Shown in pieces: positions 16,454-28,456 of a DNA stretch of 64,000 bases. The DNA is from Giardia intestinalis (lineage: Eukaryota). The DNA lies in NCBI GenBank assembly GCA_000002435.2, contig CM018793.1. The stretch is one strand, 5' to 3'. Every line of letters starts with the position of its first letter. Position 1 is the first letter of the stretch. A program made the translations under genes and the position numbers. The notes under the pieces were generated by a model. The model was not told where the DNA came from. It made no database searches and saw only the letters and a list, made by a program, of their open reading frames with translations.

Positions 16454-19400
16454 ATGCTCGGCTTTCAGCCGTCAGGTTGCTCCTTAGAAGACCAGCAAGT
16501 GTACGACAGGTGTAGTCAATATCTTTCTAAGCTGCTAGATTTCGGGACGGTCTTCACAACTCAGGAGTTTTCCGAGTTAGCTCTTTCAATAAGTAGGAGT
16601 GACTTGACGATCATTCTTTCAAAAGATTCACCCTTACTTGTGCATGCACTCAAGTACGTAAGGCTTGTATTAATGTACCACAAGATACACGTTAACATGA
16701 CGTTTTTGCTAGCCAGAATGCTTTCTCTAATCAGCTCTTTGAAAGGCACCCCAGAGCAATATGTGACTGCCCTAGATCTTACCATTGATAACCTGTATTT
16801 ACTGTTGGTGTCTTCCGAGTCGAGGGACCAACTTGTCAATTCACGCTCATTCATAGATCGCTGTGATGCCGCTACAACGGAGAATCCGTCGATCTTTGGT
16901 GTTACTGTCGATCCGTATCAGATAGTTTCGGATTTTGTAACGTTTATCAAAGAGACGGAGTACTTTACGAGCACATCTGTTAGAAACCTTGCTTTCAAAG
17001 CAGCTAACTTTTTGCTTTCCTACATTGTTGCCCCATACTTCGACCATGAAGCATCGGAGCGTGCCCGTGTAAAGGTGGGGTCATGCCGCTATGTGACCTC
17101 CCGGGCCCACGAAGCCGAAAATCACTTGTACTTAATGTCGTTTCTATTCACTGCTATGCAGGGTTCACGACTAGTCACCCACCTCGTTTACCAAATTCTG
17201 TCATATACCCCTGTTGTAGGTCTCTACAATGACGCGCTGCCACACCCATCTAGAGGGAGTTCATATGGCAAACTTGGGCTTTTGGGCCAAGAGTATCGTG
17301 CGCCAATGAATGGAGGGTCCTACACTGATAGCCACGTTGCTGGGTGTCCCATCCCACCTCGGGTGCCTACAATTCCAGCCCCCAGCAATCAAACCCAGCC
17401 AATCAGATCCTCGCAAGTATCCAGCACCGCTCCAGATGCACTCAAGCTTCCACAGTTCTATTTGCAGATGTCAAGCAGGTCTTCTAGAACGCACAATTGC
17501 ACGAGTGCACATATACCGCCTGTGACAGTTAAGAATCTAGTGTTTTATCCCTTTCTGTCTTGCTTTACAGAATGCTTTGTTTTTTGTAGTAGCTGCCAGA
17601 GCAGGCTTTTACCAACAGCCTACAAAGACAAGTCAGAGGCTAATGTTCAGGCATCTCGTGAACGAATATTCACATGCGACCGTTGCTACTCCAGCTCTCT
17701 TCTTGAACAGCTCTTTACAGGTCTCCTGAAAGCGCTGGAGCTCAATTCTTCCCGGGGTAAGGAAGTTATTAGCTACAATGACATTATAGCCCTTTTTGGG
17801 TACATCTTCGTCTGTCATCAAGCTCTCTTAACATACACGCGATCTAAGATGCTTCTGGGCACAAGTTGTCGCCAAATTCATCTTAACTTGCGCCACAAAC
17901 TTCTTCAAACCCGAAGGCTTGCCACCTCTCTTGATGAATCTTTCTCGATTGGGGGCTTTTATAAGTCTGAGGGTGCTGCCTATGCCAGAATCCACAAGCT
18001 TAAATCAGCCATTGAGAACGAATACACATCTGTTTCTGTTCCCTTGTCAACAGATTTTCCATTCCCTTCCCCGTTTTCTTTGTTGGCAAGCACAGAGTGT
18101 ACATGCAACAAGGCCCGGTCCCTCCAACCGCAGAAGATCATCATAAATAGCACCCAGGAGATGCTTATGGATGCTGGTCACCTTCTCCTCAAGAAGCCCA
18201 TTCTGTCTAATAACACTTTTTGCGCAAACCGGTTTGTTGCTGATGTACCAGTGTGGGAGCCTAATCCCCTCTGGTCTGAATGCGATCCTTTTGAACTGTC
18301 CCTCACTACCATTCTCCTTGGGCTCACCAAGGGAAAATTCCTACTGTACCTTATTCAGCATATGAATAGCTTTGTCTGTGAGCTTGAAAAAAAAGTTACA
18401 ATCCGTGACCTTCCCTGCCAGAAGGTCGAAACGCACTATGCGCGAACTATTTATCACTACTCGATGTTCTTAGGCTGTTTGCTAGATTTCTACTTTAGTT
18501 ATAACTTCTCAAAAGTTATCAACATGTTGATTTCTACGACTACCGCAGAAAGAACACCCACACCATCCAGTAATGAGCTCAGCGCGCATCACCAAATCAC
18601 CATCTCTAAAGAATGCATAGACTCCATTACTTCTACCCTCTCTGCAGCTCTTGAGATAGCGAAGGCATTGGAGAGGGACCTGTTCTGCTGTGAAGCAACA
18701 GAGGAGGTCTATTGTCCTGAACTGCAGGATGACTATTGGATCTTGGAGATAACAGCACCTGCTAGACTATACATTACAACCAGGATGCAGCCGGTGTGTG
18801 ACGGTGTTACTATCACAGATAACTATAAGGGTTTGCTGACTAAGCTAGTCACAAAGCATACTGATACTACCCTAGTTTCTTCAAGAAGCGTTCTCTGTGA
18901 CTTGTTGATAGAATCAGCCACGAAGATGTTCGCTACGTTGACGAAGAAAGCATTTCCAATTCTCTCCACCATCCAAGATGCTGCTGAGCTTGACTATATG
19001 ATTAACTCCCATTTGAATGCAGACCCTGGCTCACAGAATGGCACAGGTATGGGCGCAGCCTCAATGAACGAGTCCCTTAGTCACACGCTGATCACAGGCT
19101 CTGGGTTCAATGGTTTGATTAAGGCAGAGGTGGGCGAGCAGACTGTGTCTACGTCGCGGCTATTGGGGAGTGGTGCCATTGCCACACAATCTGGGTATAA
19201 CAATGTAGACTTTGACCAGCACTTATACCAAAAGATGCGCTATGACTACTCCAGGAGTTGGAAGGATATCGTTATGAGATTTCGCATGACCATGGTGCAA
19301 TGTATTTCGACCGGCCAGAGCTACAATCCTCCATCGAGTGCAGGGATAGATTGCAATATTCTAAAGAAGAGCATCATTGGACCCCCTGGTACACATCCCT

Positions 19401-22400
19401 TCATACGCAATAAGCCGTTGGGCCAGATGATGCCTATGATTCAAGCTTCTGCATTCAGAAATAGAATACTAAGCTTTTTCTCAACGGCGACAGACTCTGC
19501 GGTTCTCCACAAAACAATCGGTTTGCCATACGCCATACTGCCGCGGAAATTCGCGTCTCCAATTATGCGCCGCATACCTTATGAGCAACGACCGGAGAGG
19601 TTATATCTCCATTCGGCCCTCTCTACTTTATGTATATCCGCTACTAACTCTCTTCACACATTCTGTACTAGTGGAGCATCTCAGTTAAACCTGGACCCAT
19701 CCAAATTTGTGCACCCGTCGCTGTGGATGTATTACTCCATTCACTACATACAGGAAAGCAAGTACACACTGCGCTTCTTTGGAAGCAATTTATTTAAAAA
19801 CGAACCCTTTGATGTAGATCGCATCAGAGCGTCTGCAAGTCTCTTCAACGTGAAGCTCGCCTCAGAGTCCCGCCTATATTGGTCCTACATCTGTGATTTC
19901 CTATCATTGTCTATGGGTCCATCGTATAAGTGCCTGCTCCATCCCAGTGACTCGTCCTTTACTCGTATTAAACTGGAGAATGCGAAAGATAAGCGCCAGT
20001 CAGACCAAGCTAGCAAAAGCCATGAAGATACTGTTATTCTTGACTATATGCAGCACAACACGGAAATACCTTCCATCGCTACATCATCCTATCACGCTCA
20101 GTCTCTACATGTTGTAGAATCTGACACCCATAGCCTTGGTACATGTATGCACAATCAAGAGTCAGCAACCGCAATAGCACCAGCGATTCTCCAGCATAAC
20201 AGACTTCATATCGCAGCAGATGCCTCGTATGCCGATTGCTTCAACGTCTCAAAAGTTTCTGGAGTGATGGGAATGTTGAGTCCTTCGCAATCTTTCTATG
20301 AGCACCCAGCTCTCTCTCCCCATCGGTTCCTGACAGAGCTCGCTCTGTCTGGATCTGAAGCAGACCTTTTCAGTAGCGTCATCTCTGGCACTTCCGTTTC
20401 GTCCATTCAATGTTTTGAGCTGCTAGAAAGCTTTCTAATAACGCAAAACTTGGAACTATCCGAGCTTCTGCTTAAGTTTTCATTGATGCACAGTTTATAT
20501 GTACGTGAGCTCTTGCCTTCGGAGACTGTCCTCCTTGGTGAGGATTCATTTTCTGGTCTATCAAGTTATGTTCTGTTTCATGACTTCTACCTGGCCATGC
20601 ATGACATGATGCTGTATGCTGACAAACCAGTGGAACCCTTGCCGCAGACGCTAGAGCACACCCCATCCAAAAGCCAACGATCTCTGCTAAAAGTCAGGGA
20701 GTCTTCAACCTGTACCAATCGCGAATCCTGTGTCACTGCCGAGTTAACCGCAGAACTGGATATGGATCAGCCACAGGTGATACCTGGCTCTTCTACATCA
20801 ACTACCTCCGGTATCTTTCATCCAAACATATTTATGGATAAACCGACAAGCAACAAGCATGCGTGCCTTTATTATGAGCCGAAAGCTACGGAGCACCAGC
20901 AGTACATGATGTGCGGACTGGACACGCTTAACACGCCTCTCATCCCCGTCAGTGTGATTACCCAGATATTGGCCATCGCTGATTACGATGAAAACTATGG
21001 GATAGATGAAACAATGGATTCAGCTGGCTTCTGTCTGGGGCTTCACACGATAGATGTGCTTGCGCAAGCCCTCAATACTCGCCCGATCTTAGCTTACAAT
21101 ACAACACTTCTGCGCTTTATTGCCAGCATTTTGCGTACCTTGTCAGGATGCATTAATGCATTGAGCTTCCGTGATTATGCTGCCCAGCTGGTGTTTTGCA
21201 ACATTGTTTCCTTGCTGATTTCTCAATACGGCTTGACACACTTAGCAATTACTCTAGCAGAAGTTACATTGGGGGTATATAGCTCCATTTGCGACCAGCC
21301 CAGTAGTTTCTATAGGAAAATGCGTCTGGCGAGCAGCATTGACGCATACCTGAAAGAATTTGGACCAAGCCTGGGACACGCTGATGAGTACATACACTTT
21401 GTCGATCTGACACAAGGCAGAACAAGAATTCCGCTATTCTCGACTCTATTCGATGCAGACCCAACCCTGGTGGTGGAGGTATCCACTGGGAACGTTGTCG
21501 TCATCAACTTAGAGATAAAGTCGCTTCTACTCGTGCCATTTTCAGTATACATTACTGCAAAATGGTTTTATATGCAATTGCATGCAATAATCATCCGCTA
21601 TGCCAGGCTTTTGTTGAAGCTAGACCTGGCAGATCTAACGCGAGTTTGCGCTGCCGATAACTGTGACTATGGGCCCATGATAAGGTACATCTCTGATTAC
21701 TCTTCCATGATAACAACACTCAGCACATACCTCCGGGATGACCACCTCCAGCGTTTAGCGATAGACAACTGTGCTGATGATGCATCTGACCAAGAGGGTA
21801 GACAAGCAGCTCTTCTTCTAAATCCTCTTGCTATCATGCAACATAAGTACTTCCTTGCTGCGTTCAGGGACCCCCAGATGCAGCTCTATGTTCATGTGTC
21901 CATAGCTGTTCAAACCACAAACATCCGCCAGGTGGTCGCGTCCCGTCGTGAGGCGTTAAAGAACTTTCTGCTCAAGCACTTCTTCACCCGCCTAACAGTG
22001 CTCACAGAGCAGTACATACAATATGAAAAGAGCTTTCAGCTCAAGACAGCAACCACTAACTACCGCAATCCACTGCTTAAAAAATCCTCCATTTATACCC
22101 TTGCAACTGTGGGTATTGATCCTAAGCCTCTCCTGCACAAGGGACAACTGCAGGCTACCATTAGTAGCTATCAAGAGGCTTCTAAGCATCTTACACCTGA
22201 CGATAATGCTTACTTCGAGGAGCTTCGCCGCTCTATAGACAGCTCGTTTGCCACAGTGTTTGCCACTGATCACAGCGACGAAGGCTTTACGCTAACTTCT
22301 GCTCCTAAGCCCAAGCAGGACGCCTTAAAGGACGCCCCTAATCGCCTCTTTCCTTCCACCACTGCATCGGCAAATGAGCTTTCTCTGCCCCTTGTTGACT

Positions 22401-22552
22401 ATCTTATTATGCTCGATGGACTTCTCCTATCTATACACGCCACTGCTCCAGACATCAACATTGGCCACGAGCTTTTGGCCGACCTTTGTTTGGTTAGTGC
22501 GTCAGGGGCAGTTTCTCTGTGGACAAAGCATGAGCAAGAATGCACTCATTAA
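16454..22552 (+). CDS. Very large hypothetical protein (2032 aa), no recognisable domain
   Basis: Uninterrupted 6.1-kb ORF with an ATG start after gctgaaataaaaaATG. Its stop overlaps the convergent downstream gene. No motif recognisable by eye, so likely lineage-specific. Confidence 0.5.
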   Translation: MLGFQPSGCSLEDQQVYDRCSQYLSKLLDFGTVFTTQEFSELALSISRSDLTIILSKDSPLLVHALKYVRLVLMYHKIHVNMTFLLARMLSLISSLKGTPEQYVTALDLTIDNLYLLLVSSESRDQLVNSRSFIDRCDAATTENPSIFGVTVDPYQIVSDFVTFIKETEYFTSTSVRNLAFKAANFLLSYIVAPYFDHEASERARVKVGSCRYVTSRAHEAENHLYLMSFLFTAMQGSRLVTHLVYQILSYTPVVGLYNDALPHPSRGSSYGKLGLLGQEYRAPMNGGSYTDSHVAGCPIPPRVPTIPAPSNQTQPIRSSQVSSTAPDALKLPQFYLQMSSRSSRTHNCTSAHIPPVTVKNLVFYPFLSCFTECFVFCSSCQSRLLPTAYKDKSEANVQASRERIFTCDRCYSSSLLEQLFTGLLKALELNSSRGKEVISYNDIIALFGYIFVCHQALLTYTRSKMLLGTSCRQIHLNLRHKLLQTRRLATSLDESFSIGGFYKSEGAAYARIHKLKSAIENEYTSVSVPLSTDFPFPSPFSLLASTECTCNKARSLQPQKIIINSTQEMLMDAGHLLLKKPILSNNTFCANRFVADVPVWEPNPLWSECDPFELSLTTILLGLTKGKFLLYLIQHMNSFVCELEKKVTIRDLPCQKVETHYARTIYHYSMFLGCLLDFYFSYNFSKVINMLISTTTAERTPTPSSNELSAHHQITISKECIDSITSTLSAALEIAKALERDLFCCEATEEVYCPELQDDYWILEITAPARLYITTRMQPVCDGVTITDNYKGLLTKLVTKHTDTTLVSSRSVLCDLLIESATKMFATLTKKAFPILSTIQDAAELDYMINSHLNADPGSQNGTGMGAASMNESLSHTLITGSGFNGLIKAEVGEQTVSTSRLLGSGAIATQSGYNNVDFDQHLYQKMRYDYSRSWKDIVMRFRMTMVQCISTGQSYNPPSSAGIDCNILKKSIIGPPGTHPFIRNKPLGQMMPMIQASAFRNRILSFFSTATDSAVLHKTIGLPYAILPRKFASPIMRRIPYEQRPERLYLHSALSTLCISATNSLHTFCTSGASQLNLDPSKFVHPSLWMYYSIHYIQESKYTLRFFGSNLFKNEPFDVDRIRASASLFNVKLASESRLYWSYICDFLSLSMGPSYKCLLHPSDSSFTRIKLENAKDKRQSDQASKSHEDTVILDYMQHNTEIPSIATSSYHAQSLHVVESDTHSLGTCMHNQESATAIAPAILQHNRLHIAADASYADCFNVSKVSGVMGMLSPSQSFYEHPALSPHRFLTELALSGSEADLFSSVISGTSVSSIQCFELLESFLITQNLELSELLLKFSLMHSLYVRELLPSETVLLGEDSFSGLSSYVLFHDFYLAMHDMMLYADKPVEPLPQTLEHTPSKSQRSLLKVRESSTCTNRESCVTAELTAELDMDQPQVIPGSSTSTTSGIFHPNIFMDKPTSNKHACLYYEPKATEHQQYMMCGLDTLNTPLIPVSVITQILAIADYDENYGIDETMDSAGFCLGLHTIDVLAQALNTRPILAYNTTLLRFIASILRTLSGCINALSFRDYAAQLVFCNIVSLLISQYGLTHLAITLAEVTLGVYSSICDQPSSFYRKMRLASSIDAYLKEFGPSLGHADEYIHFVDLTQGRTRIPLFSTLFDADPTLVVEVSTGNVVVINLEIKSLLLVPFSVYITAKWFYMQLHAIIIRYARLLLKLDLADLTRVCAADNCDYGPMIRYISDYSSMITTLSTYLRDDHLQRLAIDNCADDASDQEGRQAALLLNPLAIMQHKYFLAAFRDPQMQLYVHVSIAVQTTNIRQVVASRREALKNFLLKHFFTRLTVLTEQYIQYEKSFQLKTATTNYRNPLLKKSSIYTLATVGIDPKPLLHKGQLQATISSYQEASKHLTPDDNAYFEELRRSIDSSFATVFATDHSDEGFTLTSAPKPKQDALKDAPNRLFPSTTASANELSLPLVDYLIMLDGLLLSIHATAPDINIGHELLADLCLVSASGAVSLWTKHEQECTH

Positions 22553-25500
22553 ATGGGCCCGCGCATACTTATAAGACGGTGCCTTCGGATCACCGCATAC
22601 CGCCATTCGTCAAAAACAGCGAGTAGTAATCTATTTTCATGCAATAAGTGCGCCTTTAGGACTTTGGAACTTAGAACTATGCTTCCAAGCAGCCCGGTTT
22701 CTAAAAGCTCCTTGTTTGTGTGAGATACAAGACACGACACTGGGATATCTGTTCTTGCACTACAGCCACAGAGAGCCTTATCTGCCCAACGCTCCAGCAG
22801 CCCTTTGTAAAAAGAATCTGCCTGCTTCTCTAGATAAATGGCCTCTCTGGATGCACGAAGGGACAGCTTCCATCGTCGCAGATAAAAAAACTTGATGTAC
22901 CTTATTCCTATTGTGTAGACATATGTATATATCCGAGACCTAACTGCCACATACTCCAGCGCCTTGCATGTCCTGGTCAAAAGACAGCGCTGATAAAATT
23001 GGTCCGCTCGCGCTGTGTCTCTAATGATCAGCATGTAGCTAGTTCTTAGTGAAGATAATCCCACTTGCTTTAACGTGTGCTCATATTTTTTATCCAATTT
23101 GGTTAGAAGGCATTGGTATTGGTGGAGCACAGTCAAGGTGGAGAACGCCCTCCGCATGAGAGACCGCCAGTATTGCTTATCTGATATATGGAGATATCTG
23201 ATTGATACTGATATAGCGCACATCGCTTGAAACGCCTGCCTTTGGAGCATGAAGCTATGGGAGCATCGTGACTTTGTTTGGATTCTCCACTGGTGAAACA
23301 CCTCAGTTACGATGGCGTTTGCAAACCGCGCCGTATACGCGTCCATTATCACCTTTAGGGTAGCCCCCAGATTAATGACTCTTCGATGCTGATACAAGCG
23401 TATATTCCACTGTCTAAAGGCAGCCTTCACCAGGCAGATTTGTCGCCTGTAGAATAAGAGACGGCTTTCCTGCTTCTGCCTAGTCTTTAACAGAAGTAAG
23501 TGCAGAACAAAGCGGGTTAGCTTTTGGGTGTGAAACGCATCTGCTTGCACAACCAGCTGCTGCAGCGCTAGGGCTCTTTGGTTACGTAGAGAGACCTCGT
23601 GCCAGTGGCGGATACAGATGCGGCAGATGTCATGCTGGTAGGTCCGTGAGGCACGATAGCTTTCCAGCTGAATCGTATGTCTATAACACGGAAGTGAAAT
23701 TTCCCACACTATCTTACGAAGCGCTCTGCGCTGTAGTGCCAGTCTGTGCATGGCCCAGAAGATCCGCCTGTATCTAAAGTTGCGCCTATTATTGATATGC
23801 TGTTCTAAGAACACGCTGCAACTATAAGCTAATTTAAAAGATTCAAATGCGCTTCTTTTAAGGTCAAGGGTCGATCGTGCTAGTATGCCAGCAGCCCGAG
23901 AGGTTAGCTCAGCATACCTTTTCGCCAGTGATGAGATGTGTCTCCAAGCAATGGAGACCAAAAGGTTGCGGTAGAATTGGTCGGATTGATTATCTTTAAA
24001 GGCACTCGCCTCTGCATATGCGTGACACAGATGGGCAAACGAAATCCTCAGGATAAGTCTTGTCCCTGCGACCAAGACACACTGCCGCTGTACGCTCAGG
24101 CCTAGTGATAAAATCTTGATTATGCGCGATTTCTCGACATAAGTGTAGTAGATGATCGCAAGATTATGTAAGGTGTGTAGGTAGAACACGTCCCGAAGCC
24201 TTGAGAACACCTTTTGAACAAGGATACTGTTATAATAGGTTGCTCCAAATGTTTCTAAAGCTGCCCTTGTATGTGCTGATTGTAGTACTTCACTGAGAGC
24301 GATGAAAGATGGCCTCGTTTCGTGAATACGCTTGGTGTCACTAGGGTTAAACACTATACAGGCCTTTCTGCGGATGCGGGACAGCTTAGATATTAGTCCT
24401 ATAACAATAGAGAGGTCCGTAAGGGACAAGACCGAACGGCTTTGCGGAGTCAACGGAGTTCCTACTGCTATGAATATGTTGTATAAATGAGTGAGATAGG
24501 GCTCGCTTGATCTGTATGTGATCGTTCTCGACGGCTCCTGCTGCAGGATAGAGGGAGAAGAAAAAATAGAAGGCTCTGGATAGCTTGTAGTAGAGGGCCC
24601 AATGGAGTCGTAGAGCAATCTCCGCAAAACCTTTTCTCTCTGGACAGCCACGCGCGTGTGTAAGGCACTAAGCCACTGATCCAGGCACCTTCTTTTAGTG
24701 AACATACTCAGCACGCCGGAGACAAGACTGTCTATCTGCATAAGACACCTCTTGTAACAGAGAAGCTTGTGCCACGTCAATAGAGTGCCTCTGAGGAGCA
24801 TGTAAGTATCATTGTCTAGAATCACTGCGCTTGATAAGCGTAACATGTTCTGTATGTAGATAACGCGAAGGTGAAAAGCCCTGAAAAAGAGCTGCTTATA
24901 GAGTCTAAGCATGTGCTGTTCAAGAGCATCTAGATTAGTACATGCAGAAGCGTGTCCTGAGCTATGACTGCTGAGTCCTTGGGTGGAATAGTTTGCAAGG
25001 TGTGTCATGGAATCCAGGATTTTGCTGTCAGCATGCCCGAGAAGCGCTGCCTCTCGTAATGCATCCTCCCGGCAGACGTGGATCATAGCCTGATCATTAT
25101 CATGAACTTCTTTGGCCGCACTAAAAGACTGCTGGGCCTCATAGACCCTATCCTTGAGTAGCGTTATAGCTGCAGAATCAACGGAGCGGAGCGTGACCAG
25201 ACAGCCCCTCAGTGCTTGGATTCGCAGTGCTCGCAGCTGTGGCCAATCCTCCTCCCAAAATCTGCAGAATTCCTGGGAAGAGAGCGGGGTTTTCCACATG
25301 GGTTGAAGCATCTTCTTGACAGGTGCATCTATGGTGACAGAAGACCCGTGCAAGACAGACGACCCCTGAGAAGGGATAGAGGCACACATATCCATACTGA
25401 CACAGAGACAATAGCGCCGAAACACAGACCCCCGGGGCACCAAGGAAAGAGGCTCTGTCGGGCCTTGTTGAGTAATCTGTGCCTTACGTTGTGGAGCTCG

Positions 25501-25602
25501 CTTTGGTGGTGAGCGCACAGCTAAGCCCCTGTCAGCCATTTCACTGCGTTGCAAACCCTGGGGATAGAGTCTGCTGAGGCTGTAGTGTTGGCAATTTACC
25601 AT
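22549..25602 (-). CDS. Hypothetical 1017-aa basic protein with numerous Sfi1-like / IQ-like W-containing repeats (possible centrin-binding cytoskeletal protein)
   Basis: ATG start after an AT-rich tract. It carries at least 12 motifs of the form hydrophobic-x2-W-basic on a basic helical background (AAFRQWNIRL, EVFHQWRIQT, KQYWRSLMRRAF, YLRRWKLSLR, VFDEWRYAVIRR, RRIFWAMHRLALQRRALRKIVWE, LDQWLSALHTR, LLTWHKLLCYKR). They recur at roughly 20-40 aa spacing, as in Sfi1 centrin-binding repeats. Confidence 0.45.
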   Translation of the reverse strand: MVNCQHYSLSRLYPQGLQRSEMADRGLAVRSPPKRAPQRKAQITQQGPTEPLSLVPRGSVFRRYCLCVSMDMCASIPSQGSSVLHGSSVTIDAPVKKMLQPMWKTPLSSQEFCRFWEEDWPQLRALRIQALRGCLVTLRSVDSAAITLLKDRVYEAQQSFSAAKEVHDNDQAMIHVCREDALREAALLGHADSKILDSMTHLANYSTQGLSSHSSGHASACTNLDALEQHMLRLYKQLFFRAFHLRVIYIQNMLRLSSAVILDNDTYMLLRGTLLTWHKLLCYKRCLMQIDSLVSGVLSMFTKRRCLDQWLSALHTRVAVQREKVLRRLLYDSIGPSTTSYPEPSIFSSPSILQQEPSRTITYRSSEPYLTHLYNIFIAVGTPLTPQSRSVLSLTDLSIVIGLISKLSRIRRKACIVFNPSDTKRIHETRPSFIALSEVLQSAHTRAALETFGATYYNSILVQKVFSRLRDVFYLHTLHNLAIIYYTYVEKSRIIKILSLGLSVQRQCVLVAGTRLILRISFAHLCHAYAEASAFKDNQSDQFYRNLLVSIAWRHISSLAKRYAELTSRAAGILARSTLDLKRSAFESFKLAYSCSVFLEQHINNRRNFRYRRIFWAMHRLALQRRALRKIVWEISLPCYRHTIQLESYRASRTYQHDICRICIRHWHEVSLRNQRALALQQLVVQADAFHTQKLTRFVLHLLLLKTRQKQESRLLFYRRQICLVKAAFRQWNIRLYQHRRVINLGATLKVIMDAYTARFANAIVTEVFHQWRIQTKSRCSHSFMLQRQAFQAMCAISVSIRYLHISDKQYWRSLMRRAFSTLTVLHQYQCLLTKLDKKYEHTLKQVGLSSLRTSYMLIIRDTARADQFYQRCLLTRTCKALEYVAVRSRIYTYVYTIGIRYIKFFYLRRWKLSLRASREAIYLEKQADSFYKGLLERWADKALCGCSARTDIPVSCLVSHTNKELLETGLLGSIVLSSKVLKAHLLHENRLLLAVFDEWRYAVIRRHRLISMRGPI

Positions 25603-25666: not shown

Positions 25667-27508
25667 ATGTACCTGTTATATGAGGCCGCGTCTGGCTTAG
25701 CGATGTTCAAGGTTTTGGACGAAAGCAAGCTTAAGGCCGCCGACCTGGTCGGGGCAATGATGCGCACAAGTAGTGACGTCCAGAAAATAGTTTCCCTTGT
25801 CTCATTTTCAAAGTTTCCAAGCGTCGAGGGTGCGTTAGCCACACAAACCTCAACCTTTGAGAAGGATGTGAGCGAGGAGCTAAAAAAGTTTGTGGAGAAA
25901 CACTTTGTGAACACCGTAGCCAAGAAGGATGCGTCCGAAAAGCTCCTGGTCCAGGACCCTCACATGGTTACCGCCCTCAAGGATGTCTACGGGGTCCGTG
26001 CTGCATTTAATGACATAGTTGTTGAGCTGTCTAGGGGGATACGTACGCATCTGGCCTCCATTCTCCCTGATTTTGATCAAGAACACGACAGCTCAATGGC
26101 GATGGGGCTTGCACACTCCTTTTCTCGCTACCGCGTCAAGTTCAATGCTGACTCTATAGATATCATGCTTATTCAAGCCATTGCTTTAATTGACGACACT
26201 GAGAAGGATATCAACCAGTTTGCCATGCGACTTCGTGAGTGGATGGTTTGGCACTTCCCCGAGCTGATTACTATCGTACCAGATAATATAGACTATGCCA
26301 GGACTGTAGTCGTGCTCCGGGACAGGAGGCATCTCGAGGAGTCGCTCACAACGTCTGGCCGCGAAAAGTTCATAAAGGCCCTTAACAAAGCGTCTAAGGA
26401 TCAAGCTTATGCCATTATATCTGCTGCTAAGACATCTGTTGGCACGGATATTACTGACCAGGACTCCGACAGAGTTGTCCACCTGGCTGAGGAGCTTCTT
26501 TCTTTGGTCTCATACCGCGAGGAGTTGCATGAGTACATTGAGGCACGCATGCTTGCTGTTGCACCCAATTTCACCCGCATTGTCGGGTCCATCGTCGGCG
26601 TCCGTCTTCTGGCCAAAGCGGGAAGTTTGCTCAACCTTGCCAAGCTCCCCGCATCCACCTTGCAGATTCTTGGCTCAGAACGTGCACTTTTCCGTGCCAA
26701 GAAAATGCGATCCAAGCAGACGCCCAAATATGGGTTTATCTATCACGCTGCGCTTGTGGGAAAAGCATCTGCAACCAATCGAGGGAAGATGGCACGTGTC
26801 GTAGCAACAAACGCATCTCTTGCTGCTCGTGTGGACGCTCTCTCGGAGTCCTCTAACACCAGCTTTGCTAAAGGAAAGCTTGAGAAGATAAACGCGTCTC
26901 TGCGCTTCTATGAAGGGGACAAGCAAGCTCGCTCAAACAGAAAATCTATTGCTTCACAGAAGATGGAAGCATACAGGCGCGGAGTGGCAACAGGATATGA
27001 AGGGAAGGGGGACATGAAGCTTTCGAAGGAAACAGCCCCTGCTGCTGAGCCCAAAAAGACTCGAATGACGGAGGCGTTTGAGGAAGACACTGGGTTCACG
27101 CAGACCAAGGCCTCACAGGATAAGGGCTCAAGAAATAAGGAGAATGCACAAGAACGACAAGACGATGCTATGCCAGCGCCCTTAGAGCCTTTATCGAGTG
27201 CTGCGAAGAAAGACGAGCCCGTGGCACCAATTGAGGTGGATGCGGAAGACACCAATGACACCAAGGACGCTAAGGAGAAGCATAAGGAGAAGAGCAAGGA
27301 AAAGCACAGAGACAAGGACAAAGAAAAAGAAAAGCACAAGGAGAAGGAGAAGGATAAAGAGAAGCACAGGGACAAGGATAAGGATAAAGAAAGAGATAAG
27401 GAAAAACATAAAGACAAGGACAAGCACAGGGATAAAGACAGAGAAAAAGACAAGGAAAAGCATAAGAGCAAGGATGACGATAAGAAGAACAAGACGCACT
27501 CCAAGTAA
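25667..27508 (+). CDS. NOP58: Box C/D snoRNP protein Nop58 (Nop5/Nop56/Nop58 family) with KKD/E-rich C-terminal tail
   Basis: The N-terminus MYLLYEAASGLAMFKVLDESKL matches the NOP5 N-terminal domain. It is followed by the Nop domain (...GSERALFRAKKMRSKQTPKYGFIYHAALVGKAS...) and a charged KDKEKEKHKEKEKDKEKHRDKDK tail. Confidence 0.85.
   Translation: MYLLYEAASGLAMFKVLDESKLKAADLVGAMMRTSSDVQKIVSLVSFSKFPSVEGALATQTSTFEKDVSEELKKFVEKHFVNTVAKKDASEKLLVQDPHMVTALKDVYGVRAAFNDIVVELSRGIRTHLASILPDFDQEHDSSMAMGLAHSFSRYRVKFNADSIDIMLIQAIALIDDTEKDINQFAMRLREWMVWHFPELITIVPDNIDYARTVVVLRDRRHLEESLTTSGREKFIKALNKASKDQAYAIISAAKTSVGTDITDQDSDRVVHLAEELLSLVSYREELHEYIEARMLAVAPNFTRIVGSIVGVRLLAKAGSLLNLAKLPASTLQILGSERALFRAKKMRSKQTPKYGFIYHAALVGKASATNRGKMARVVATNASLAARVDALSESSNTSFAKGKLEKINASLRFYEGDKQARSNRKSIASQKMEAYRRGVATGYEGKGDMKLSKETAPAAEPKKTRMTEAFEEDTGFTQTKASQDKGSRNKENAQERQDDAMPAPLEPLSSAAKKDEPVAPIEVDAEDTNDTKDAKEKHKEKSKEKHRDKDKEKEKHKEKEKDKEKHRDKDKDKERDKEKHKDKDKHRDKDREKDKEKHKSKDDDKKNKTHSK
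27245..27500 (+). repeat. Imperfect tandem coding repeat (about 18-24 nt units; K-D/E-K-H dipeptide periodicity) forming the Nop58 lysine-rich tail
   Basis: The units aaggacaaagaaaaagaaaagcacaag / gagaaggagaaggataaagagaagcac / agggacaaggataaggataaagaa... repeat here. They generate spurious low-complexity ORFs on the opposite strand (26908..27504, 27191..27544). Confidence 0.7.
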
Positions 27509-27520
27509 ATAACTTAAAAA
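27504..27520 (+). promoter_or_regulatory. 12-bp intergenic spacer: Nop58 polyadenylation signal (AGTAAAT overlapping the TAA stop) immediately followed by the A-rich initiator of the Aurora kinase gene
   Basis: ccaAGTAAATaacttaaaaaATGccg: the AGTRAAY motif overlaps the Nop58 stop, and the next ATG (27521) follows after an A/T-only spacer. Confidence 0.45.
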
Positions 27521-28456
27521 ATGCCGCAGCACTTGGTACCCCACACAGGGACAGGAAAGCGCACTACAATAGAGGACTTTGAGATTGGACGCTTTCTTGG
27601 TCGTGGAAAGTATGGCTTGGTTTACCTAGCACGTGAACAGTCCTCCAAGTTGGTGGTTGCCCTTAAAGTGCTGTATAAATCCTACATCAAATCGGAGCGT
27701 GTTGAGGGCCAGGTGCGCAGGGAATTGGATATACATCTTAATGTGAGGCACATAAACATAATTCGCTTGTATACTTGGTTCCAGGACGAGACCCGAGTCT
27801 TTTTGGTCCTCGAAGTGGCTCCGTACGGCGAGCTTTACCAAAGGTTACAGCAGTTCGGGAAGTTTCCTCTACCCGTTGTAAGCAAGATTATTCGAGACGT
27901 GGCACAGGCGATACAGTATCTTCACAGAAAGAACATCTTCCATAGGGACCTTAAGGCAGAAAACATCTTGATTTGCAAGGGGAAAGAGACCAAAGAGCAC
28001 ACAGATGCGCACAATTCAGATGACTCCATTTCTGTGCATGAACACGAGCTAGTCCGAATGGCACACTACACATACAAGATTGCAGACTTTGGATGGTCCG
28101 TGCACCATCCAACCCACGGTGGCCGACGACGCACCCAGTGCGGAACTCTCGACTACCTTCCCCCGGAGGTCATGCTCGGACAATCTTATGATAAGGCTTG
28201 CGATATCTGGTCACTCGGAGCCCTGTGCTATGAGCTCATCTGTGGCACCGCGCCCTTCTACCACGACGAAATCAAGATCACACGACAAAATATAGCCAAC
28301 GTAGAGTATAGCTTTACTAAGGACTTCAGCCCAGCCAGCAAAGATTTCATCCAGCGGATGTTAATTAGAAGCCCAGAGGCCCGGATCTCCATAGAGGATA
28401 TCCTCCGGCATCCATTCCTGAGACAGACAGATCACAGGAGTAAGGTCCCCAAGTAG
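27521..28456 (+). CDS. AURK: Aurora-family Ser/Thr protein kinase
   Basis: GRGKYGLVYLAREQSSKLVVALKVL (Gly-loop/VAIK), HRDLKAENILI, KIADFGWSVH...RRRTQCGTLDYLPPEVM (activation loop typical of Aurora), WSLGALCYELICGTAPF. It contains an insert of about 29 aa between the catalytic loop and DFG. Confidence 0.85.
   Translation: MPQHLVPHTGTGKRTTIEDFEIGRFLGRGKYGLVYLAREQSSKLVVALKVLYKSYIKSERVEGQVRRELDIHLNVRHINIIRLYTWFQDETRVFLVLEVAPYGELYQRLQQFGKFPLPVVSKIIRDVAQAIQYLHRKNIFHRDLKAENILICKGKETKEHTDAHNSDDSISVHEHELVRMAHYTYKIADFGWSVHHPTHGGRRRTQCGTLDYLPPEVMLGQSYDKACDIWSLGALCYELICGTAPFYHDEIKITRQNIANVEYSFTKDFSPASKDFIQRMLIRSPEARISIEDILRHPFLRQTDHRSKVPK

What the first reader, a model, noticed from the sequence alone, without database searches (positions are those of the whole stretch)
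22549..25602. 1017-aa basic protein built from Sfi1-like / IQ-like W repeats: candidate centrin-binding basal-body fibre protein
At least 12 occurrences of hydrophobic-x2-W-(R/K/H/Q/N) embedded in Arg-rich helical sequence recur every 20-40 aa (AAFRQWNIRL, EVFHQWRIQT, KQYWRSLMRRAF, YLRRWKLSLR, VFDEWRYAVIRR, LDQWLSALHTR, RRIFWAMHRLALQRRALRKIVWE, CIRHWHEVSL, LLTWHKLLCYKR). This resembles the Sfi1 repeat (A-x7-LL-x3-F/L-x2-W-K/R) that binds centrin in centrosomes, basal bodies and contractile fibres. Giardia has a centrin-rich basal-body/flagellar apparatus. No other domain is evident, so this would be a lineage-specific cytoskeletal scaffold.
Basis: inference. Interest (0 to 1): 0.55.

Follow-up and report, generated by a model that had tools for sequence, protein, structure and literature searches.

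The report
Giardia's divergent Sfi1-like centrin scaffold gene
This ORF is Giardia lamblia gene GL50803_16992, a real, conserved, very basic helical protein that is a highly diverged relative of Sfi1, the protein that binds many centrin molecules at centrosomes and basal bodies; one public database already names it that way, but nobody has tested it.

Summary
The ORF is real. It is 100% identical to G. lamblia WB GL50803_16992. It is 1017 aa from the first ATG and 996 aa from the start shared with other assemblages.

Only 6 sites fit hydrophobic-x2-W-[KRHQN], not 12 or more. However, 7 of 15 Trp sit in the full Sfi1 context, against 3 of 113 Trp in the window's 26 other long ORFs. A consensus-based score finds 15 sites, against 5.6 in shuffles.

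Pooled over four lineages, the commonest residues around Trp reproduce the published Sfi1 consensus A-x7-LL-x3-F/L-x2-W-K/R.

Pfam's Sfi1 model does not hit the Giardia protein. It does hit a colinear distant homologue, P0024, above threshold, and shuffled controls are negative.

Residues 441-1017 are proline-poor, and AlphaFold predicts roughly 100-residue helices with no compact fold. No IQ, TPR/HAT or POC5 signal was found.

Conclusion: a divergent Sfi1-family member that probably binds centrin. UniProt already names this sequence "Sfi1 spindle body domain-containing protein", and a 2006 paper used a Giardia Sfi1. Centrin binding and localisation are untested. Novelty is low.

The parts
22549..25602 (-). 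Longest ORF (1017 aa plus stop), identical to GL50803_16992 as first annotated (XP_001708018.1).
   Evidence: 100% identity over 1016 aa.
22549..25539 (-). CDS from the conserved start Met22 (996 aa plus stop). This matches the current annotation XP_001708018.2 / KAE8305277.1 and the start of the orthologues in the other assemblages.
25228..25320 (-). Conserved N-terminal Trp box, VKKMLQPMWK..FCRFWEEDWPQLRA (residues 95-125). It is nearly invariant across Giardia lineages and recognisable in P0023 and P0025. It is not an Sfi1 repeat.
24598..25227 (-). Proline-free helical segment (residues 126-335) holding two Sfi1-type repeats 33 aa apart (W277, W310).
24748..24822 (-). Repeat at W277, ILDNDTYMLLRGTLLTWHKLLCYKR (LL-x3-L-x2-W-H).
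24649..24723 (-). Weaker repeat at W310, VSGVLSMFTKRRCLDQWLSALHTRV.
24283..24597 (-). Proline-rich linker (residues 336-440, 10 Pro). It interrupts the repeats and contains a conserved block, YLTHLYNIFIAVGTPLTPQSRSVLSLTDLSIVIGLISKLSRIRRK.
22567..24282 (-). Main basic helical repeat region (residues 441-1012). It has 3 Pro in about 577 aa and R+K 94 against D+E 35. It holds roughly 13-17 degenerate Sfi1-type sites at 28-40 aa spacing.
24172..24246 (-). Trp-less repeat anchored at L469 (LV-x3-F-x2-L-R). The anchor is Trp in P0025.
23812..23886 (-). Trp-less repeat anchored at F589 (LK-x3-F-x2-F-K). The anchor is Trp in P0023 and P0024.
23683..23697 (-). SLPCY motif. Its Pro and Tyr are invariant in all eight family members. 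It is the only proline inside the central repeat region, so it is a candidate kink or hinge.
23578..23652 (-). Repeat at W667, ASRTYQHDICRICIRHWHEVSLRNQ (A-x7-IC-x3-I-x2-W-H). The Trp is invariant in all eight sequences.
23383..23457 (-). Repeat at W732, LFYRRQICLVKAAFRQWNIRLYQHR (LV-x3-F-x2-W-N).
23263..23337 (-). Repeat at W772, YTARFANAIVTEVFHQWRIQTKSRC (IV-x3-F-x2-W-R).
23023..23097 (-). Trp-less repeat anchored at L852 (LK-x3-L-x2-L-R). The anchor is Trp in P0023.
22846..22920 (-). Repeat at W911, VYTIGIRYIKFFYLRRWKLSLRASR.
22762..22836 (-). Repeat at W939, YLEKQADSFYKGLLERWADKALCGC. The L-x-R-W-A core is invariant in all eight sequences.
22579..22653 (-). Repeat at W1000, AHLLHENRLLLAVFDEWRYAVIRRH. 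It is a perfect match to A-x7-LL-x3-F-x2-W-R, and its F and W are invariant in all eight sequences.
22552..22587 (-). Conserved C-terminal tail, RRHRLISMRGPI (RR..L.S.RGP). It lies at the extreme C-terminus in all family members.

Best explanation
**What it is.** GL50803_16992 encodes a strongly diverged, diplomonad-type member of the Sfi1 family.

**Domain layout**
- A proline-rich N-terminus with a conserved Trp box.
- A short helical segment with two Sfi1-type repeats (W277, W310).
- A proline-rich linker.
- A basic helical region of about 570 residues (441-1012), predicted as a few very long alpha-helices. It carries about 8 good and about 7 weaker Sfi1-type sites, L/I-[LVC]-x3-[FLI]-x2-[W/F/L]-[RKH], every 28-40 residues.
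- A conserved RR..L.S.RGP tail.

**How it probably works (inferred).** By analogy with yeast and human Sfi1, each site would present its hydrophobic triad (positions -7, -3 and 0) to the C-terminal lobe of one centrin. The candidates are Giardia centrin GL50803_6744 and caltractin GL50803_104685. The protein would then become a centrin-decorated filament at basal bodies and spindle poles. There it would act in duplication, cohesion or nuclear attachment of the basal-body tetrads.

**Shown here:** gene reality and conservation, motif enrichment and context, family membership by transitive homology, and helical, proline-poor architecture.

**Inferred only:** centrin binding, stoichiometry, localisation and cellular role.
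For: **Gene reality and conservation**
- 100% identity to GL50803_16992.
- Orthologues at 81, 69, 68 and 63% identity in other Giardia lineages.
- A syntenic orthologue, P0023, at E = 9e-73.
- 13 of 15 Trp are invariant, against 47% of all residues.

**Motif**
- 6 strict sites against 1.4 expected.
- 7 of 15 Trp in full context, against 3 of 113 Trp in the other ORFs.
- 15 consensus-score sites against 5.6 +/- 2.0 in shuffles, and 8 against 1.3 at the stricter threshold; site density is 7.5-fold and 20-fold that of the other ORFs.
- [FLW]xxW[KR] occurs 3 times here, against 3 times in 17,319 aa elsewhere in the window.
- Five reversed Sfi1-type triads and no forward XPC-type triads.
- Pooled W-centred columns reproduce A(-16), L(-8), L(-7), F/L(-3), R(+1). 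This is the consensus in PMC2173958 and PMC2063913.

**Homology chain**
- The Giardia profile hits P0024 at E = 2.8e-6 in 1.84e9 proteins.
- That match is colinear at 68-88 bits, with shuffles reaching at most 4 bits.
- P0024 hits Pfam Sfi1 at 25.1 bits against a gathering score of 22, with negative reversed and shuffled controls.

**Architecture**
- 3 Pro in 577 aa, and Pro/Gly-free runs of 107 and 101 aa.
- AlphaFold2 predicts helices of 104, 87 and 96 aa.

**Prior labels and context**
- The UniRef name for this sequence.
- A Giardia lamblia Sfi1 was used in Li et al. 2006.
- Giardia centrins localise to basal bodies.
Against: - Pfam PF08457 does not match the Giardia protein, its fragments, its orthologues, P0023 or P0025, even at E <= 10.
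- Profile searches of the PDB do not retrieve Sfi1 chains.
- Internal repeat similarity is marginal in leave-one-out HMM and hhalign tests.
- Only 3 strict minimal centrin-binding motifs are present, against about 20 in canonical Sfi1.
- The repeats are interrupted by a proline-rich linker of about 105 aa and are not uniformly 33 aa apart.
- The AlphaFold2 models are low confidence (pLDDT 35 and 55).
- I found no experimental data on this protein.
Confidence: 0.65

Rival explanations
1. A basic, long-helix scaffold whose Trp motifs resemble Sfi1 only by convergence or composition. It would bind something other than centrin, for example calmodulin or another EF-hand protein, microtubules or nucleic acid through its high positive charge.
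For: - There is no direct Pfam Sfi1 hit for any Giardia sequence.
- Only 3 strict [FLW]xxW[KR] motifs are present.
- Internal repeat similarity is weak.
- The pI is 10.1, with R+K 94 against D+E 35 in the repeat region.
- The link to Sfi1 rests on one intermediate sequence, at 25 bits.
Against: - The position-specific pattern around Trp matches the Sfi1 consensus at five separate positions.
- Shuffled and natural controls rule out composition as the cause.
- The Pfam-matching region of P0024 is the part that aligns to the Giardia repeats.
- UniProt's pipeline named this sequence as an Sfi1-domain protein.
Confidence: 0.22
2. A TPR/HAT-like alpha-solenoid, built from roughly 34-residue helix-turn-helix repeats with conserved aromatic residues, that acts as a globular protein-protein interaction module.
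For: The repeat period of about 28-40 aa, with conserved Trp and hydrophobic positions, is superficially like TPR or HAT repeats. The protein is all-helical.
Against: - No TPR, HAT or Sel1 Pfam hit even at E <= 10.
- Pro/Gly-free runs of over 100 aa, and predicted helices of 87-104 aa rather than pairs of 12-15 aa helices.
- pTM 0.26, so no compact fold.
- No structural match.
Confidence: 0.05
3. An IQ-motif protein that binds calmodulin or light chains.
For: It is a basic helical sequence with regularly spaced hydrophobic and basic residues. Kilmartin compared Sfi1 repeats to IQ arrays (PMC2173958).
Against: There is no match to [FILV]Qxxx[RK]Gxxx[RK] or to a relaxed version of it, and no Pfam IQ hit.
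Confidence: 0.03
4. A POC5-like centriolar protein, with a few Sfi1-type repeats plus the POC5 signature.
For: POC5 homologues with Sfi1-like repeats are reported in Giardia (PMC2700515).
Against: There is no Pfam POC5 hit. POC5 has a tandem of centrin-binding repeats and a conserved 21-aa box. This protein has a repeat region of about 570 aa and different conserved boxes.
Confidence: 0.02

Closest known systems
Sfi1 (S. cerevisiae Sfi1p, S. pombe Sfi1, human SFI1; Pfam PF08457; structures 2DOQ, 2GV5, 2K2I)
   Same: - The repeat motif has the same conserved positions, A-x7-LL-x3-F/L-x2-W-K/R.
- The hydrophobic triad is in the reversed, Sfi1-type orientation.
- The repeat region is proline-poor and long-helical.
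- Repeat spacing is variable, about 28-40 aa, as in fungi. Gaps are near-multiples of the repeat length, as first seen in yeast (PMC2063913).
- Non-repeat N- and C-terminal parts are not conserved outside the lineage.
   Different: - No direct Pfam hit.
- Only about 8 good and about 7 weak sites, against 20-24 continuous repeats.
- The repeats are split by a proline-rich linker of about 105 aa.
- Many anchor positions are L or F instead of Trp.
- There are lineage-specific conserved boxes: the N-terminal Trp box, SLPxY and the RR..L.S.RGP tail.
- Centrin binding is not shown.
PfSlp, the Plasmodium falciparum Sfi1-like protein (PF3D7_0710000; Wenz et al. 2023, PMC10180636)
   Same: A parasite protein assigned to the Sfi1 kind mainly because it accumulates [FLW]xxW[KR] motifs rather than through sequence homology. 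It is a precedent for very divergent Sfi1-like centrin partners in protists.
   Different: PfSlp is 407 kDa, was found by centrin co-immunoprecipitation, and has been localised and knocked down. The Giardia protein is 118 kDa, has few strict motifs and has no experimental data. On the other hand, it has a homology chain to Pfam Sfi1.
Sfi1-repeat centrin-binding proteins of ciliate contractile and basal-body systems (Paramecium, Tetrahymena). This comparison rests on general knowledge of the field; I did not read or test these here.
   Same: Long arrays of Sfi1-type repeats that scaffold centrin into fibres associated with basal bodies.
   Different: Those proteins are much larger and have many regular repeats. 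I made no sequence comparison here.
POC5
   Same: It contains Sfi1-type centrin-binding repeats and is reported as conserved in Giardia (PMC2700515).
   Different: POC5 has only a short tandem of repeats plus a 21-aa signature. No such signature or Pfam hit was found here.

Membership tests
Sfi1 (Pfam PF08457 / Sfi1-repeat proteins) | Significant match of the protein itself to the Pfam Sfi1 profile. | tested here: not met
   There was no hit at E <= 10 for the whole protein, seven fragments, the orthologues P0003 and P0005, or the homologues P0023 and P0025. UniRef nevertheless names this sequence 'Sfi1 spindle body domain-containing protein'; I presume this comes from an automatic domain match by another pipeline or model version, and I could not reproduce it here.
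Sfi1 (Pfam PF08457 / Sfi1-repeat proteins) | Homology to a sequence that passes the Pfam Sfi1 gathering score (transitive membership). | tested here: met
   P0024 matches Sfi1 at 25.1 bits against a gathering score of 22, E = 8.2e-6, residues 502-666. The reversed sequence and four shuffles gave no hit. P0024 is colinear with the Giardia family at 68-88 bits, with shuffles reaching at most 4 bits.
Sfi1 (Pfam PF08457 / Sfi1-repeat proteins) | Multiple repeats with the consensus A-x7-LL-x3-F/L-x2-W-K/R. | tested here: met
   One perfect copy (W1000). Seven of 15 Trp sit in the full hydrophobic and uncharged context, against 3 of 113 in controls. The score finds 15 sites against 5.6 in shuffles. 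Pooled columns give A, L, L, F/L and R at -16, -8, -7, -3 and +1. However, Kilmartin's stricter ScanProsite patterns give only 1 and 0 hits.
Sfi1 (Pfam PF08457 / Sfi1-repeat proteins) | 20-24 continuous repeats at a spacing of about 23-36 aa (33 aa outside fungi). | tested here: inconclusive
   Family-informed anchors give about 17 sites at 28-40 aa spacing. They are interrupted by a proline-rich linker of 105 aa, and several anchors are weak.
Sfi1 (Pfam PF08457 / Sfi1-repeat proteins) | A proline-poor repeat region that forms a long continuous alpha-helix. | tested here: met
   There are 3 Pro in residues 441-1017 and Pro/Gly-free runs of 107 and 101 aa. AlphaFold2 predicts helices of 104, 87 and 96 aa with pTM 0.26 (low confidence, pLDDT 55).
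Sfi1 (Pfam PF08457 / Sfi1-repeat proteins) | Direct binding of one centrin per repeat. | not testable with these tools
   This needs pull-down, ITC or co-crystallisation with GL50803_6744 or GL50803_104685.
Sfi1 (Pfam PF08457 / Sfi1-repeat proteins) | Localisation to the centrosome, spindle pole body, basal body or a centrin fibre. | not testable with these tools
   No localisation data were found. The gene is not in the basal-body protein table of McInally & Dawson 2016 and is not mentioned in the searchable literature.
IQ-motif calmodulin-binding proteins | The IQ consensus [FILV]Qxxx[RK]Gxxx[RK], or a Pfam IQ hit. | tested here: not met
   No strict or relaxed IQ motif and no Pfam IQ hit.
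TPR/HAT-type helical repeats | A profile match, and short paired helices with turns about every 17 aa. | tested here: not met
   No Pfam hit. The protein has long Pro/Gly-free runs and predicted helices of about 100 aa.
POC5 | The conserved 21-aa POC5 box plus a tandem of centrin-binding repeats. | tested here: not met
   No Pfam POC5 hit. The conserved boxes in the family alignment are different.

The most novel reading that the evidence does not exclude
The diplomonad proteins (Giardia lineages, P0023, P0024, P0025) may form a distinct, reduced Sfi1 sub-type. It would keep only a handful of competent centrin sites and would have gained lineage-specific modules: the N-terminal FCRFWEEDWP box, the invariant SLPxY kink and the RR..L.S.RGP tail. 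This sub-type could be the unidentified centrin-dependent connector between the basal-body tetrads and the two nuclei or spindle poles of the binucleate cell. If so, its depletion would uncouple basal-body and nuclear segregation.
Probability: 0.15. Interest if true: 0.5.

Novelty: already known. Interest (0 to 1): 0.25.

Why it matters
Giardia must duplicate and segregate eight basal bodies together with two nuclei. Centrin marks those structures, yet no centrin-binding partner has been studied in this organism.

This gene is the obvious candidate. NCBI calls it "hypothetical protein", and it is missing from the published table of known and candidate basal-body proteins.

What this analysis adds is modest:
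- quantitative support for the Sfi1 assignment;
- a map of the likely centrin sites for mutagenesis;
- the correct conserved start codon;
- three previously unnamed distant homologues;
- three lineage-specific conserved boxes.

It is not a new kind of system.

Tried and rejected
**Searches that found nothing useful**
- Pfam hmmscan of the whole protein and seven fragments at E <= 10 gave no Sfi1, IQ, TPR or POC5 hit.
- PDB sequence and profile searches with A1, A2 and P0024 gave nothing relevant.
- A profile of 42 W-centred windows (A3) was mis-gapped by MAFFT and gave only chance hits, so that test is uninformative.
- The word-indexed homologue search with the family alignment found only Giardia proteins.
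- I tried to fetch genuine SFI1 sequences with the human R17 peptide, after confirming it as 2K2I_B. The attempt failed, first because the query was too short and then because no candidates were found.

**Weak or circular tests**
- A seed HMM of 8 repeats recovered only its own members, which is circular.
- The leave-one-out version was significant for only about half the repeats.
- hhalign between segments of the family alignment gave probabilities of 1-18%.

**Structure**
- Full-length AlphaFold2 gave pLDDT 35 and was unusable for fold search.
- A Foldseek search of the 640-1017 model against the PDB found nothing.

**Other checks**
- No DNA-level tandem or direct repeats.
- The literature searches found no paper naming GL50803_16992.
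- The supplement of Li et al. 2006, which names their Giardia sequence, is not held. Lauwaet et al. 2011 is not held either.
- I suspected the EF-hand gene near P0025 might be a linked centrin. It is a penta-EF-hand protein like ALG-2.
Full report
**Identity of the locus**

The window is Giardia lamblia (intestinalis) WB. The ORF at 22549..25602 on the minus strand is 1017 aa. It is 100% identical to XP_001708018.1, GL50803_16992.

The current annotation (XP_001708018.2 / KAE8305277.1) is 996 aa and starts at Met22, window position 25539. The orthologues in assemblage E (P15, 81% identity), assemblage B (69%) and two further lineages from SRA assemblies (68% and 63%) start at the same place. 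The first ATG does follow an AT-rich stretch, so the true start in assemblage A is not settled.

The gene lies tail-to-tail with a 2032-aa gene. The two stop codons overlap in TTAA. It is divergent from a Nop56/58-type gene, which is followed by an Aurora-like kinase gene. No alternative ORF of at least 100 aa lies on the opposite strand of the gene.

**Checking the observation**

The protein is basic, with pI 10.1, 10.1% Arg and 13.4% Leu, and it has 15 Trp.

It is still enriched: 1.4 are expected from shuffles, P about 6e-4. Kilmartin's original ScanProsite patterns are barely met, with 1 and 0 hits.

The context of the Trp residues is nevertheless far from random:
- 7 of 15 Trp have hydrophobic residues at -3 and -8 and uncharged residues at -4 and +4. 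In the 26 other ORFs of at least 250 aa in the same window, 3 of 113 Trp do.
- The minimal centrin-binding motif used for Plasmodium PfSlp is [FLW]xxW[KR] (PMC10180636). It occurs 3 times here and 3 times in the other 17,319 aa.
- A simple score written from the published consensus allows F, L, Y, H or M at the Trp position. It finds 15 non-overlapping sites against 5.6 +/- 2.0 in 1000 shuffles (maximum 12). At a stricter threshold it finds 8 against 1.3.

Trp spacing is 33, 34, 40, 40 and 28, plus near-multiples of about 30-33 (63, 65, 99, 61). The same situation led Li et al. to find hidden repeats in yeast Sfi1p (PMC2063913).

The repeats resemble each other only at motif level. Leave-one-out HMMs are significant for about half of them. 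hhalign between segments gives probabilities of 1-18%. There is no repeat at the DNA level.

I therefore rate the observation as partly confirmed. The feature is real, but it has fewer clean copies than stated.

**Relatives**

A full HMMER search of 1.84 billion representative proteins with the Giardia alignment found only three more proteins. All three are unnamed and come from SRA assemblies.

| Protein | Length | E-value |
|---|---|---|
| P0023 | 956 aa | 9e-73 |
| P0024 | 802 aa | 2.8e-6 |
| P0025 | 1157 aa | 4e-5 |

P0023 is the positional orthologue. It shows the same 4-nt tail-to-tail overlap with an orthologue of the 2032-aa neighbour, which is 29% identical over 2019 aa.

P0024 scores 68-88 bits against a family HMM built without it. 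The match is colinear over three blocks, and shuffled or reversed copies reach at most 4 bits.

The eight-sequence alignment (A2) shows an invariant SLPxY motif, an invariant L-x-R-W-A repeat core at W939, and an invariant last repeat plus tail (F..W....RR..L.....P).

**Link to Sfi1**

Pfam's Sfi1 model (PF08457) does not hit any Giardia sequence, P0023 or P0025, even at E <= 10. It does hit P0024 at 25.1 bits, above the gathering score of 22 (E = 8.2e-6, residues 502-666). That stretch is the part that aligns to residues about 768-947 of this ORF. The reversed sequence and four shuffles of P0024 give no hit.

A second line of evidence is independent of Pfam. I pooled the 72 Trp-centred windows of four lineages. 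The commonest residues were:
- A at -16;
- L at -8 and at -7;
- L/F at -3 (44 of 72 hydrophobic, P < 1e-4);
- R at +1 (P = 1e-4).

That is the published consensus, A-x7-LL-x3-F/L-x2-W-K/R (PMC2173958, PMC2063913).

Mapping the Trp of the distant homologues onto the Giardia protein turns several Trp-less positions into repeat anchors: L469, L525, F589, L703 and L852. This gives a lattice of 28-40 aa from residue 469 to 1000.

All five clean hydrophobic triads are in the reversed, Sfi1-type orientation (phi-x3-phi-x2-W). None is in the forward, XPC-type orientation.

**Architecture**

| Residues | Character |
|---|---|
| 1-125 | Proline-rich (12 Pro), with a conserved Trp box |
| 126-335 | Proline-free and helical, with repeats at W277 and W310 exactly 33 aa apart |
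| 336-440 | Proline-rich linker (10 Pro) |
| 441-1017 | 3 Pro, R+K 94 against D+E 35, Pro/Gly-free runs of 107 and 101 aa |

AlphaFold2 on the full protein was unusable (pLDDT 35), though almost entirely helical. On residues 640-1017 it predicts helices of 104, 87, 96 and 34 residues with pTM 0.26, meaning no compact fold (pLDDT 55). Foldseek finds nothing. This fits an extended Sfi1-like helix rather than a TPR/HAT-type solenoid. No IQ motif is present.

**Prior knowledge**

UniRef100_A0A644F9J7, which is this exact protein, is already named "Sfi1 spindle body domain-containing protein". NCBI calls it hypothetical.

Li et al. 2006 included a Giardia lamblia Sfi1 in their logo of 454 repeats. 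The supplement that names the sequence is not held, so I cannot prove it is this gene.

I found no experimental work on it. [quoted passage not shown] Giardia's two centrins localise to basal bodies (PMC12307541, PMC4931700).

**Mechanism**

The mechanism is inferred, not shown. The protein would act as a centrin-binding filament. Each repeat would offer its -7/-3/0 hydrophobic triad to one centrin along a long basic helix. The conserved N-terminal box and C-terminal tail would serve anchoring or end-to-end association, by analogy with yeast Sfi1p.

I put the probability that the protein is a true Sfi1-family homologue at about 0.75. I put the whole statement, including centrin binding at basal bodies, at about 0.65.

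The main rival is a convergent basic helical scaffold with another partner (about 0.2). The TPR/HAT, IQ and POC5 readings were tested and not supported.

**Verdict**

There are fewer strict motifs than stated. The protein is not lineage-specific but a diverged member of a pan-eukaryotic family. The IQ alternative fails.

The assignment already exists in a public database, so novelty is low. The value lies in a testable map of candidate centrin sites for an unstudied Giardia gene.

Noticed in passing
window 22549-22552: GL50803_16992 (minus strand) and the convergent 2032-aa gene (16454..22552, plus strand) overlap by 4 nt, and their stop codons share TTAA. The same 4-nt tail-to-tail overlap with the orthologous neighbour occurs in the distant homologue locus L002 (4322-4325). 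The arrangement is therefore conserved, so each gene's 3' end signals presumably lie inside the other gene.
   Followed up: partly
window 16454-22552 (+): The 2032-aa ORF has no Pfam hit at E <= 1 but is conserved: it is 29% identical over 2019 aa to the 1873-aa neighbour in L002. It is a large protein of unknown function, syntenic with the Sfi1-like gene.
   Followed up: partly
window 25667-27508 (+) and 27521-28456 (+): A Nop56/58-type snoRNP gene (Pfam Nop and NOP5NT) with a long Lys/Asp/Glu-rich tail is followed, 12 nt after its stop, by an Aurora-like Ser/Thr kinase gene. Several ORFs of 100-200 aa that overlap the Lys-rich tail region (26908-27544, either strand, other frames) look like artefacts of the low-complexity sequence.
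   Followed up: no
window 25540-25602: The 21 extra N-terminal codons (MVNCQHYSLSRLYPQGLQRSE) are present in the A-type sequences of cluster P0001 (the WB and DHA2 records and the 98% identical P0001) and absent from the annotated proteins of the other lineages. The first ATG follows an AT-rich stretch (aatattattttactaatgacaattt), so either ATG could be used in assemblage A.
   Followed up: partly
L001 3446-3988 (-): A 180-aa EF-hand protein is encoded about 2 kb upstream of the Sfi1-like homologue P0025. Its best PDB matches are ALG-2/PDCD6 and calpain small subunits (E = 2e-10), not centrin. There is therefore no evidence of a linked centrin gene.
   Followed up: yes
protein residues 636-640 (window 23683-23697), 95-125 (25228-25320) and 1006-1017 (22552-22587): Three conserved boxes are not part of the Sfi1 repeat. 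The SLPxY motif and the C-terminal RR..L.S.RGP tail are kept in all eight family members; the N-terminal FCRFWEEDWP box is kept in the Giardia lineages and is recognisable in P0023 and P0025. Their function is unknown.
   Followed up: no
whole ORF (UniRef100_A0A644F9J7 versus the Pfam copy used here): UniProt names this sequence as an Sfi1-domain protein, yet PF08457.15 gives no hit here even at E <= 10. This is probably a difference in model version or pipeline. I could not resolve it.
   Followed up: partly
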